DNA of 64,000 nt. It comes from a virus. The stretch lies in the IMG/VR virus record IMGVR_UViG_3300046002_004363, positions 1 to 64,000 of that record; one strand, given 5' to 3'. Under the pieces are notes generated by a model. That model had not been told where the DNA came from, did no database searches, and saw only the letters and a program-made list of their open reading frames with translations. Within the stretch, counting starts at the first letter, position 1. Every line of letters starts with the position of its first letter. The position numbers were made by a program, and so were the translations under genes. Below are positions 6,207 through 7,608 of this stretch, in pieces.

Positions 6207-6444
6207 GGAGAAAATTATCAATAGAGTAAATGTAATATACAATACTCTAATCAATGCAAATAAAAAAGACTCTGTATCGGAGGATGTTAAGAGTATTAGA
6301 TTTGTGGTATTCAATGGTAAGACCACAGAAGAATCAATTAAGATTAAGAAAATGTTTGATGTAGTCTTCGAGAGAGAATTAAATAAGAGATTACAAGAAG
6401 CAAATAATGAATTAAGTATAATTAATAACCATATAAATAAATAA
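6193..6444 (+). CDS. hypothetical protein
   Basis: ORF overlapping the upstream stop. Confidence 0.6.
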   Translation: METIKEKIINRVNVIYNTLINANKKDSVSEDVKSIRFVVFNGKTTEESIKIKKMFDVVFERELNKRLQEANNELSIINNHINK

Positions 6445-6448
6445 GATT

Positions 6449-6931
6449 ATGTATTTAGACGAAGCAATTTATAACATTGTAGTAAAGGAATCGAAAGAAG
6501 TTAAGGGAGAAGAAACTAAATCATTTGTTGGTAGAAAACTTAAGTGTATGGAAGACAATGCAAACTACACATTAGCTGTGAAAGGAGAGGTAGTTGAAGT
6601 GGTAAATCAAGATGGTAGTGTATTAACCATAAGCAAACCAATAAATGGTATTGATGGTATGAAGATAACTTCTTGTATGATTGGTAAGGAATTTAAACTA
6701 CTAAAGAAGAAAGGCAAGAAAGATACCATAGTTGAAGCAATTGTAGATAAATTTAAGAGCAGGAGTGATGTTGGTATTAAGAAATACAACACCACATTAG
6801 ATAGGGATGACCTTACAACAGAGCAGTGGATTGATCACGCAATTGAGGAAGGAATGGATATGATTCTATATTTAGAGAGATTAAAGAGAGATATAACTAA
6901 TATTAAGAAAGCTGTAGGAGATGGAAAATAA
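6449..6931 (+). CDS. protein with C-terminal all-alpha NTP pyrophosphatase-like domain
   Basis: R...G.KKY.TTLDR....WIDHAIEE.MD..LY. Confidence 0.5.
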   Translation: MYLDEAIYNIVVKESKEVKGEETKSFVGRKLKCMEDNANYTLAVKGEVVEVVNQDGSVLTISKPINGIDGMKITSCMIGKEFKLLKKKGKKDTIVEAIVDKFKSRSDVGIKKYNTTLDRDDLTTEQWIDHAIEEGMDMILYLERLKRDITNIKKAVGDGK

Positions 6932-7151
6932 GACACTGCAAAGGGTAATCTTTGAACTATCTGGGCAAAAGAATAATAGGGAGTTTGCAAAGTACATCAG
7001 GAGATCAGAGAGTTACACATCAAATATGATAAACTCAGATAAGAACATAAGTGTTGAACTCGGAATTGATATGATGCAGAGAATGTATTTAGATAAGGAA
7101 TTAATTAAGGAGGTTATATTAAATTATATAGATGAAGCTTTCTTTATTTAG
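6921..7151 (+). CDS. putative XRE-type HTH protein
   Basis: NREFAKYIRRSESYTSNMIN. Confidence 0.5.
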   Translation: MENKTLQRVIFELSGQKNNREFAKYIRRSESYTSNMINSDKNISVELGIDMMQRMYLDKELIKEVILNYIDEAFFI

Positions 7152-7230
7152 AAGATAGTTCTTATATTTGCAAAGGTAAAATAGCTAAGCTGTGTAAAGC
7201 GTTCAAACTGATAATTGATTAGAAGCTAAA

Positions 7231-7306
7231 TCCAAAGTAGTGTAACTTGGTAACACAATCAATGGGCAACTGTTGATAAATGAAGTTTCGAATACTTCCT
7301 TTGGAG
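7231..7306 (+). ncRNA. tRNA-like RNA without a canonical anticodon loop
   Basis: acceptor TCCAAAG/CTTTGGA+G; D arm GTGT/ACAC; T arm GAAGT-TTCGAAT-ACTTC; anticodon arm ATCAATGG-GCAA-CTGTTGAT. Confidence 0.8.
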
Positions 7307-7313
7307 CATAGTA

Positions 7314-7451
7314 GTTTTCTTATGATAAAAATCTTTACAAATCCTGTAAGGTAGCTATTCCACTTGGTCGTTTCAACTGACAGTATAAGAAAACGGTTAA
7401 CTCATAATTGACTGTCAAAAGTGGATATGGATTGACTGATGGAAAGACATC
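7314..7451 (+). ncRNA. candidate pseudoknotted structured RNA
   Basis: GTTTTCTTAT/ATAAGAAAAC crosses TCCACTT/AAGTGGA and TGACAGT/ACTGTCA; ends in a hairpin and T run. Confidence 0.5.
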
Positions 7452-7506
7452 TTTTTTTTGTAATCACTTTTTTGTATTAAAATATTTTGTATATTTGCAG
7501 AGCAAT

Positions 7507-7607
7507 CCACTACTTGCAGAGAAAATTTATGCTAAATTAGCAATCCGACAAATCTCAATATAGTGTAGTGGCTGTATTGGGATTTTGTCTTTTTAAAAAC
7601 CACTACA
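7507..7607 (+). promoter_or_regulatory. structured leader of the replication initiator gene
   Basis: 17-bp stem 7547-7589 with loop TGTAGTGG complementary to CCACTAC at 7507 and 7600. Confidence 0.65.
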
Positions 7608-7608
7608 A

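What the first reader, a model, noticed from the sequence alone, without database searches (positions are those of the whole stretch)
7231..7306. tRNA mimic with the anticodon loop replaced by a GNRA tetraloop
Seen: well-formed acceptor, D and T arms (TTCGAAT loop, U1-A72, G73), but the anticodon arm is an 8-bp stem capped by GCAA, so it should not decode. All stems are intact, which argues against decay, and a promoter lies at 7163. Inference: a decoy or structural mimic, for example for tRNA-targeting defence nucleases, synthetases or RNase P/Z processing of the adjacent RNA.
Basis: partly seen in the sequence, partly recalled or inferred. Interest (0 to 1): 0.75.

Follow-up and report, generated by a model that had tools for sequence, protein, structure and literature searches.

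The report
Anticodon-less tRNA look-alike in phage
A Flavobacterium phage encodes a tRNA-shaped RNA whose codon-reading loop is sealed shut; it sits directly in front of a conserved structured RNA, in a slot that related phages fill with a normal tRNA or other sealed look-alikes, so it is probably a cutting signal for tRNA-processing enzymes, not a decoder.

Summary
Window 7231-7306 (+) is a complete cloverleaf (Rfam tRNA 47.3 bits). Its anticodon arm is an 8-bp stem capped by GCAA, and no canonical 7-nt loop can be drawn. It is not a sequencing error: the same sealed arm occurs in two cultured Elemovirus isolates, two IMG/VR contigs and contigs from several public runs. All four substitutions among the copies keep base pairs.

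It lies in a promoter-to-terminator non-coding operon made of a leader, a tRNA-shaped element, a ~130-nt structured RNA (16 of 31 pairs covary) and a terminator. In 64 of 68 cultured relatives the same slot holds a canonical tRNA(CAU). More distant relatives hold four other tRNA-shaped elements without a usable anticodon loop (triloops, GUAA or GAAA caps, large hairpin inserts). These always flank conserved structured RNAs.

Best reading (about 0.45): an interchangeable dummy tRNA that serves as an RNase P/RNase Z processing handle. A decoy for a host tRNA-binding factor is not excluded. A decoy for anticodon nucleases is unlikely. No cleavage, CCA addition or charging has been shown.

This scan has noted sealed-anticodon mimics before in other phages, beside Pth2 genes. 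This record has no Pth2, so the context differs. I found no published description.

The parts
7163..7170 (+). Bacteroidota-type -7 promoter box (TAnnTTTG) of the non-coding operon
   Evidence: Read. Conserved in all relatives. The 10-mer around it is over-represented in the window. Its promoter role is inferred from the known Bacteroidota consensus, not shown.
7176..7230 (+). 5' leader of about 54 nt that travels with the look-alike
   Evidence: Identical in five loci with different backgrounds. In the record's second copy it also precedes the 177-nt look-alike. Its fold is not better than shuffles.
7231..7306 (+). tRNA-shaped RNA with a sealed anticodon arm (the finding; 'type B')
   Evidence: ARAGORN, Rfam tRNA 47.3 bits, fold, pair counts 100% paired.
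7258..7277 (+). Sealed anticodon arm: 8 bp (7258-7265 with 7270-7277) capped by GCAA at 7266-7269
   Evidence: Invariant in all copies.
7307..7437 (+). Conserved structured RNA ('RNA X') that starts one base after the discriminator
   Evidence: RNAalifold: 9 of 25 pairs compensatory among close relatives, and 16 of 31 when distant loci are added. No Rfam family.
7438..7459 (+). Terminator hairpin (loop conserved, stem covaries) followed by a T run
   Evidence: columns 134-148 covary.

Best explanation
The element is a decoding-dead 'dummy tRNA'. It keeps exactly the parts that RNase P, RNase Z and the CCA-adding enzyme recognise: the acceptor stem, the T arm and the D/T elbow. Its anticodon loop is closed into a stable hairpin. 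It acts as a punctuation mark in a phage non-coding RNA operon. Cleavage at its 5' end would release the leader. Cleavage just after its discriminator would create the 5' end of the conserved structured RNA X. Sealing the loop keeps the by-product out of translation.

Shown: the anatomy, the conservation, the operon layout and the interchangeability of tRNA-shaped elements. Inferred: transcription as one unit, the two cleavages, CCA addition, and the reason for sealing.
For: 1. The slot between the promoter and RNA X holds a tRNA-shaped gene in every Elemovirus record listed: 64 carry tRNA(CAU) and 4 carry this look-alike. The replaced segment ends exactly at the discriminator, and the next 8 bases are the same for the real tRNA, this look-alike and the 177-nt one.
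2. None of these genes encodes CCA. The real tRNA(CAU) must therefore be cut at that junction to function, so the same cut is expected for the look-alikes (inference).
3. RNA X is a real structured RNA with 16 of 31 pairs compensatory. In different phages it is directly preceded by types A, A', B, C or E.
4. A second conserved RNA ('RNA Y', with two compensatory doubles) is preceded by type C in L035 but by type D in L037, and is followed by A' or A.
5. Across the look-alikes the acceptor, T arm and GG-containing D arm are kept, while the anticodon arm varies freely: 8 bp + GCAA, 5 bp + triloop, 6 bp + triloop, 6 bp + GUAA, a GAAA stub, and long hairpins.
6. All four substitutions among the type B copies keep pairs, and one is a double change in the T stem.
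Against: No RNA ends have been seen. The RNA-library data available are assembled contigs, which cannot show cleavage or even prove transcription. RNase P and RNase Z need only the acceptor/T minihelix plus the elbow, so a full D arm and a long, neat anticodon helix are more than this role requires. The look-alike travels with its own invariant 54-nt leader and moves between phage backgrounds like accessory cargo, which hints at a function of its own. Covariation within type B rests on only three distinct sequences and is not significant by the shuffle control (165 of 500). The sealed stem itself never varies.
Confidence: 0.45

Rival explanations
1. The look-alike is itself an effector: a decoy or sponge that ties up a host protein recognising the tRNA body (acceptor end, elbow). 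Candidates are an acceptor-stem or T-loop tRNase, a nucleotidyltransferase toxin, or a tRNA-sensing defence factor. The flanking RNAs are separate matters.
For: It is phage-encoded and patchily distributed: 2 of about 64 cultured isolates, spanning two species. It is exchanged as a cassette with its own invariant leader. All tertiary-contact nucleotides of a real tRNA are kept. Both look-alikes in this record share U1-A72 and G73. Related phages carry several different look-alikes in a row.
Against: No partner gene or target is identifiable. The shared U1-A72/G73 may only be part of the flank homology used in cassette exchange. Other types have A1-U72/A73, G1.U72/G73 or C73, so no common acceptor identity is selected. 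An anticodon-nuclease decoy would need the anticodon loop, which is the one part that is lost.
Confidence: 0.22
2. The element is not cut off. It stays fused to RNA X as a folded 5' cap or scaffold that protects RNA X from 5' decay, or helps it fold, like an engineered tRNA scaffold.
For: It is directly adjacent to RNA X in every phage. The anticodon arms are hairpin-capped and stable. In L039 the operon is only promoter, 69-nt look-alike, RNA X and terminator.
Against: In most relatives the same position is held by a real tRNA(CAU) that must be released to work. The CCA-less junction is identical for that tRNA and for the look-alike.
Confidence: 0.12
3. It is a decaying tRNA gene (a neutral relic), or a decoding or aminoacyl-carrier tRNA with an unusual 10-nt loop.
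For: ARAGORN and GenBank annotators call it tRNA-Ala. Its body resembles tRNA-Gln: U1-A72 and G73, and the only exact match to its D-arm 20-mer in 185,579 species genomes is a tRNA-Gln(CUG).
Against: All stems are intact and every substitution preserves pairing. The sealed form is identical in isolates from the Baltic Sea and in lake, freshwater and wastewater runs. It has no U33 and no 7-nt register. ARAGORN's register pairs only 3 of 5 stem positions (by inspection). There is no G3:U70, so alanine identity is not met. Sealing arose repeatedly in related elements.
Confidence: 0.08

Closest known systems
Canonical bacterial or phage tRNA (Rfam RF00005)
   Same: It has a 7-bp acceptor stem, a 4-bp D stem with GG in the loop, a 5-bp T stem with a UUCGAAU loop, a 4-nt variable region and a discriminator. 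It scores above the family's gathering score.
   Different: The anticodon arm is 8 bp + GCAA (20 nt instead of 17). It has no U33, no anticodon, and no identity set that I can match.
tRNA-like processing handles: mascRNA at the 3' end of MALAT1, vtRNAs of murine gammaherpesvirus 68 TMERs, plant dicistronic tRNA-snoRNA genes, mitochondrial tRNA punctuation, and the engineered polycistronic tRNA-gRNA design (all from my own knowledge)
   Same: A tRNA-shaped, non-decoding element lies directly next to another non-coding RNA in one transcript. It keeps the features read by RNase P and RNase Z.
   Different: Those cases are eukaryotic, organellar, herpesviral or engineered. This one is a bacteriophage operon with interchangeable real and dummy tRNAs. 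Cleavage is not shown here.
Sealed-anticodon tRNA mimics noted earlier by this scan in other phages, beside Pth2-like genes (e1-5361260, e1-5361997, e1-5820437, e1-4035431; AI notes)
   Same: tRNA body with the anticodon loop closed by a tetraloop. Phage-encoded and conserved.
   Different: This record has no PTH2-family gene, and none is annotated in the sister phage. Here the context is a non-coding operon in the replication module. I found no sequence relationship to those cases.
YrlA / bacterial Y RNAs with a tRNA-like module (from my own knowledge)
   Same: Non-decoding tRNA mimicry in bacteria and phages.
   Different: In YrlA the RNA ends form the Ro-binding helix and the acceptor-like stem is closed. 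Here the ends form a normal acceptor stem with a discriminator. No rsr gene is annotated.
Engineered tRNA scaffolds, with the anticodon arm replaced by a cargo hairpin (from my own knowledge)
   Same: Same design principle. The 177-nt sister element in this record carries hairpins in the D loop and the anticodon arm.
   Different: This is natural, and the 76-nt form carries essentially no cargo (3 bp plus a tetraloop).
Phage T4 tRNA cluster with its two stable RNAs of unknown function, and spacer-derived RNAs of bacterial tRNA operons such as 3'ETS-leuZ (from my own knowledge)
   Same: Non-tRNA stable RNAs are co-transcribed with tRNAs and matured by tRNA-processing enzymes.
   Different: In those cases the tRNAs are functional decoders. 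Here the tRNA-shaped partner can be a sealed dummy.

Membership tests
tRNA (RF00005) | Cloverleaf with acceptor, D and T arms, scoring above the gathering score | tested here: met
   47.3 bits against a gathering score of 29. ARAGORN also calls it.
tRNA (RF00005) | 7-nt anticodon loop with U33 and a purine at position 37 | tested here: not met
   There are 10 nt between the stem halves, which fold to 3 more pairs plus GCAA. No register gives a 7-nt loop closed by a sound stem (inspection).
tRNA (RF00005) | Aminoacylation and use on the ribosome | not testable with these tools
   No G3:U70. U1-A72 and G73 are Gln/Asn-like, but this is only a lead.
tRNA-like processing handle (mascRNA / TMER / tRNA-snoRNA type) | Non-decoding tRNA-shaped fold that keeps the acceptor, T arm and elbow | tested here: met
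tRNA-like processing handle (mascRNA / TMER / tRNA-snoRNA type) | Directly abuts another functional non-coding RNA within one transcription unit | tested here: met
   RNA X starts at 7307 and covaries. There is one promoter box and one terminator. That it is a single transcript is inferred.
tRNA-like processing handle (mascRNA / TMER / tRNA-snoRNA type) | Cleavage by RNase P and RNase Z, then CCA addition | not testable with these tools
   Only assembled contigs of RNA libraries were available.
Anticodon-nuclease decoy | Presents the anticodon loop of the targeted tRNA | tested here: not met
   The loop is replaced by GCAA. Arm length and cap are not conserved among the sister look-alikes.
tmRNA | G3:U70 alanine identity and a tag reading frame | tested here: not met
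   Positions 3 and 70 form C3-G70. The element is 76 nt. ARAGORN reports no tmRNA here.
YrlA / Y RNA | The RNA ends form a Ro-binding helix and the acceptor-like stem is closed by a loop | tested here: not met
   The ends form an open 7-bp acceptor stem with a discriminator.
Pth2-linked sealed tRNA mimic cassette (earlier scan notes) | Lies directly behind a PTH2-like gene | tested here: not met
   No PF01981 match in the 99.6-kb record. The neighbours are small unknown ORFs and replication genes.

The most novel reading that the evidence does not exclude
The sealed tRNA look-alikes are swappable counter-defence cargo. They would be stable, CCA-tailed but untranslatable tRNA bodies that soak up a host factor which senses or attacks tRNAs through the acceptor end or elbow. 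Each design (types B to E) would then match a different host factor. The tRNA-processing junctions would be merely the way these RNAs are matured.
Probability: 0.2. Interest if true: 0.85.

Novelty: new variant of a known kind. Interest (0 to 1): 0.62.

Why it matters
If the reading holds, a group of cultured phages with an available host uses tRNA punctuation to mature non-coding RNAs. These phages replace real tRNAs with purpose-built dummies whose anticodon is sealed. That would be a bacterial-virus counterpart of mitochondrial punctuation, MALAT1/mascRNA and herpesviral TMERs, and a natural precedent for engineered tRNA-gRNA arrays and tRNA scaffolds.

There are practical consequences as well. 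Such genes are currently annotated as ordinary tRNAs: this one is labelled 'tRNA-Ala' in GenBank. That inflates phage tRNA counts and distorts codon-usage arguments.

The system can be tested directly. Isolates with the look-alike (elemoA_7-9A, elemoC_14-1A) and near-isogenic isolates with tRNA(CAU) infect the same strain.

Tried and rejected
- **Rfam, whole window, gathering thresholds.** It reported nothing, not even this element. The local scan scores it at 47 bits. The whole-window negative is therefore a filter effect and not evidence.
- **E. coli-type promoter scan.** It does not cover Bacteroidota promoters.
- **Search for a relative with a normal loop, or with a different cap on the same body.**
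  - A pattern scan of IMG/VR gave 16 hits, of which only L018 and L019 are real.
  - A scan of JGI metagenome contigs found only the contig already seen as L019.
  - A scan of GTDB genomes found none.
  - blastn against 50,697 phage records found only the two cultured isolates.
  - There is therefore no covariation test for the three extra pairs or the GNRA cap.
- **RNA-library runs X9, X10 and X12 (one sample).** Their contigs span 6400-7573 with no differences. Contigs cannot show ends, strand, level or even transcription, so I draw nothing on processing from them. Uncovered stretches beyond 7800 say nothing.
- **Shuffle control on three sequences.** Not significant.
- **Leader fold and RNA Y fold.** Neither is better than shuffles.
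- **Literature.** Seven full-text searches and two papers read found no description of sealed-anticodon phage tRNA mimics, and no primary Elemovirus paper in the library. This check is not exhaustive.
- **Considered and rejected.**
  - tmRNA, YrlA and an attP copy of a host tRNA: no genome match to the body.
  - A +1 or quadruplet decoder: the loop would be 10 nt with no U33.
  - A Pth2 cassette.
- **My acceptor+T-arm script.** It has a chance background of about 2 hits per 64 kb at long spacings, so I count only tRNA-sized or D-arm-bearing hits inside the slot.

Full report
**What the window is**

The window is a Flavobacterium phage of the genus Elemovirus. The region matches 68 records of vB_FspP_elemo phages (host Flavobacterium sp. 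BAL314, Baltic Sea mesocosms) and nothing else in 50,697 phage records. It is the first 64 kb of a 99.6-kb IMG/VR record that runs on into a second, diverged copy of the genome.

**The observation**

Bases 7231-7306 (+) form a complete cloverleaf:
- a 7-bp acceptor stem with U1-A72 and discriminator G;
- a 4-bp D stem with GG in the loop;
- a 5-bp T stem with a UUCGAAU loop;
- a 4-nt variable region.

ARAGORN calls it 'tRNA-Ala (ggc)'. The Rfam tRNA model gives 47.3 bits with 10 nt between the anticodon-stem halves. Those 10 nt fold into three more pairs and a GCAA tetraloop, which gives an 8-bp arm. ARAGORN's register pairs only three of five stem positions, there is no U33, and no other register gives a 7-nt loop.

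The whole-window Rfam run at gathering thresholds missed the element. That result is a filter effect and not evidence against it.

**It is not an error or a one-off**

The same 76 nt occur in several independent sources:
- two cultured isolates of two species, elemoA_7-9A and elemoC_14-1A, at 96% identity;
- two IMG/VR contigs from other samples, L018 and L019;
- contigs of several public runs from lake, freshwater and wastewater studies. The four runs that I laid on the window show no difference inside the element.

There are three distinct sequences. They differ at four positions, and all four changes preserve pairing: A-U to G.U in the acceptor stem, G-C to G.U in the D stem, and U-A to G-C in the T stem. 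With three sequences this is suggestive but not significant (165 of 500 shuffles). The sealed arm itself never varies, so its pairing is not tested by covariation. No relative with the same body and a normal loop was found in IMG/VR, JGI metagenomes or GTDB genomes.

**The surroundings change the picture**

The element lies in a short non-coding operon:
- a Bacteroidota-type -7 box at 7163-7170;
- a 54-nt leader;
- the look-alike;
- a ~130-nt RNA (RNA X, 7307-7437) that starts one base after the discriminator;
- a hairpin with a T run at 7438-7459.

No ORF of 40 aa or more covers 7152-7407. RNA X is a real structured RNA. Nine of 25 predicted pairs show compensatory changes among close relatives, and 16 of 31 do when distant loci are added. 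It matches no Rfam family.

In 64 of 68 cultured relatives the position of the look-alike is held by a canonical 74-nt tRNA with anticodon CAU and a different leader. The exchanged segment runs from just after the promoter to exactly the discriminator. The next eight bases are identical for the real tRNA and the look-alike. None of these genes encodes CCA, so the real tRNA must be cut at that junction to be usable. The same cut is then expected for the look-alike. This last step is inference.

**More look-alikes in the same slot**

The second genome copy in the same record carries both leaders and then a 177-nt element. That element has U1-A72, G73, a normal T arm and a Leu-type D arm. It has a ~48-nt hairpin inserted in the D loop and a long irregular hairpin in place of the anticodon arm.

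Using the neighbouring 76-aa ORF, I fetched six more distant loci (68-72% protein identity). I listed every acceptor-plus-T-arm module in the slot and folded them. Besides the canonical tRNA(CAU) (type A) and the finding (type B), the slot holds four other types:

| Type | Size | Anticodon region |
|---|---|---|
| A' | 76 nt | tRNA(CAU) body; arm folds to 6 bp plus a triloop; the T and D loops are also altered |
| C | 105-177 nt | class-II-like; one version has a 6-bp stem capped by GUAA |
| D | 73 nt | 5 bp plus a triloop |
| E | 69 nt | stub arm with a GAAA cap |

A covariance model built from type B finds types D and E (29 and 26 bits) but not the canonical tRNA.

In L036-L038 the operon reads: promoter, leader, type C, spacer, type D, a 140-nt RNA (RNA Y), tRNA(CAU), RNA X. 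In L035, RNA Y is preceded by type C instead and followed by type A'. RNA Y is 96% identical between these loci, with two compensatory double changes. In L039 and L040 the operon is only promoter, type E, RNA X and terminator.

The invariants are therefore the structured RNAs and the presence of some tRNA-shaped element at their borders. The type of element, and above all its anticodon arm, is free to vary.

**Mechanism**

The conserved parts are the acceptor stem, the T arm and the D/T elbow. From established knowledge, these are what RNase P, RNase Z and the CCA-adding enzyme read. The decoding part is lost in several different ways.

My best explanation (confidence about 0.45) is a dummy tRNA that punctuates a non-coding operon, so that host tRNA-processing enzymes release the leader and create the 5' end of RNA X. 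Sealing the loop would keep the by-product away from synthetases that read the anticodon and from the ribosome. The architecture and interchangeability are shown. Transcription as one unit, both cleavages, CCA addition and the benefit of sealing are inferred.

**Rivals**

- *A decoy or sponge for a host factor that binds the tRNA body (about 0.22).* It would explain the cassette-like mobility, the private invariant leader, the full set of tertiary nucleotides and the multiplicity of designs. It has no identifiable partner. A decoy for anticodon nucleases specifically is unlikely, because the loop is what is missing.
- *An uncut 5' cap or scaffold for RNA X (about 0.12).* This fits less well with the real tRNA occupying the same place in most relatives.
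- *A neutral relic or an odd decoder (about 0.08).* This is contradicted by the intact stems, the pair-preserving changes, the wide recurrence and the missing U33.

**Ancestry**

U1-A72 with G73 is the acceptor end of bacterial tRNA-Gln and tRNA-Asn (from my own knowledge). The only exact match to the D-arm 20-mer among 185,579 species genomes is a tRNA-Gln(CUG) that also has U1-A72 and G73. This is a weak lead that the body derives from a tRNA-Gln. It says nothing about charging.

**Comparison with what is known**

The element passes the sequence-and-structure test for tRNA but fails the defining anticodon-loop feature, so I do not file it as a tRNA. It works most like tRNA-like processing handles: mascRNA/MALAT1, MHV68 TMERs, plant tRNA-snoRNA genes, mitochondrial punctuation and engineered tRNA-gRNA arrays. 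Cleavage, which is the defining feature of that class, is untested. It is not a tmRNA or a YrlA.

This scan has noted sealed-anticodon mimics before in other phages, there behind Pth2-like genes. The present record has no PTH2-family gene, and none is annotated in the sister phage. The context here is therefore different, although the design is the same.

Full-text searches found no published description. A 2023 catalogue of candidate viral RNAs mentions tRNA-like candidates only in general terms. GenBank labels this element tRNA-Ala.

**Verdict**

A non-decoding mimic is supported, processing of the adjacent RNA is favoured, and an anticodon-nuclease decoy is disfavoured.
- Novelty: a new variant of a known kind.
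- Interest is about 0.6. The design and its repeated, varied use in one phage group would surprise a specialist. The system has cultured phages and a host, so it is testable. The function remains inferred.

Noticed in passing
window 7307-7437: Conserved ~130-nt structured RNA (RNA X) with strong covariation (16 of 31 pairs) and no Rfam family. It is present in every Elemovirus-like locus examined, always just after a tRNA-shaped element. Function unknown.
   Followed up: partly
window 7176-7230: The 54-nt leader is 100% identical in five loci whose flanks differ. It precedes either the 76-nt or the 177-nt look-alike. Its fold is no better than shuffles. It is either recently spread or strongly constrained.
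   Followed up: partly
window 7490-7608: A second TAnnTTTG box is followed by a ~100-nt leader of the replication-initiator gene. Close relatives carry at least three unrelated versions of it, each ending in a long hairpin. A DNA-run contig switches version exactly at 7498.
   Followed up: no
L023 1559-1735 (same record, about 69.7 kb, outside the window): A 177-nt tRNA look-alike with a Leu-type D arm, a ~48-nt hairpin in the D loop and a long hairpin in place of the anticodon arm. Here both kinds of leader stand in tandem before it. The 99.6-kb record appears to join two different strains head to tail.
   Followed up: partly
L036 1910-2409; L037 and L038 2353-2852; L035 2012-2332; L039 and L040 2260-2328: Distant relatives carry up to three tRNA-shaped elements in one non-coding operon. 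These are a class-II-like type, a triloop type and a canonical tRNA(CAU), separated by conserved RNAs. L039/L040 instead carry a single 69-nt stub-arm type.
   Followed up: partly
L037 2779-2853, L036 2336-2410: The reverse strand of the canonical phage tRNA(CAU) matches Rfam Plastid-ycf2 5'UTR at 51-57 bits, below the gathering score. To my knowledge that model is antisense to plastid trnI-CAU. This is a lead that the phage tRNA is a lysidine-type tRNA-Ile and not tRNA-Met.
   Followed up: no
MT497017.1 10495-10570 (L001 1632-1707): GenBank annotates the sealed look-alike as 'tRNA-Ala'. That is an artefact of a forced ARAGORN call.
   Followed up: yes
A local Rfam scan at E up to 0.1 finds no family match. 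I did not inspect the motifs by eye.
   Followed up: partly
window, 33 sites such as 3646, 7163, 7490, 39723, 49821, 57341, 58207: The 10-mer around the -7 box is over-represented (33 matches against 13.8 expected). This fits a phage- or host-type promoter motif.
   Followed up: partly
L017 7115-7515 (IMGVR_UViG_3300000976_000002, unrelated contig): ARAGORN reports a permuted tmRNA immediately followed by a tRNA(CAU) in a 60-kb viral contig that a chance pattern hit fetched.
   Followed up: no
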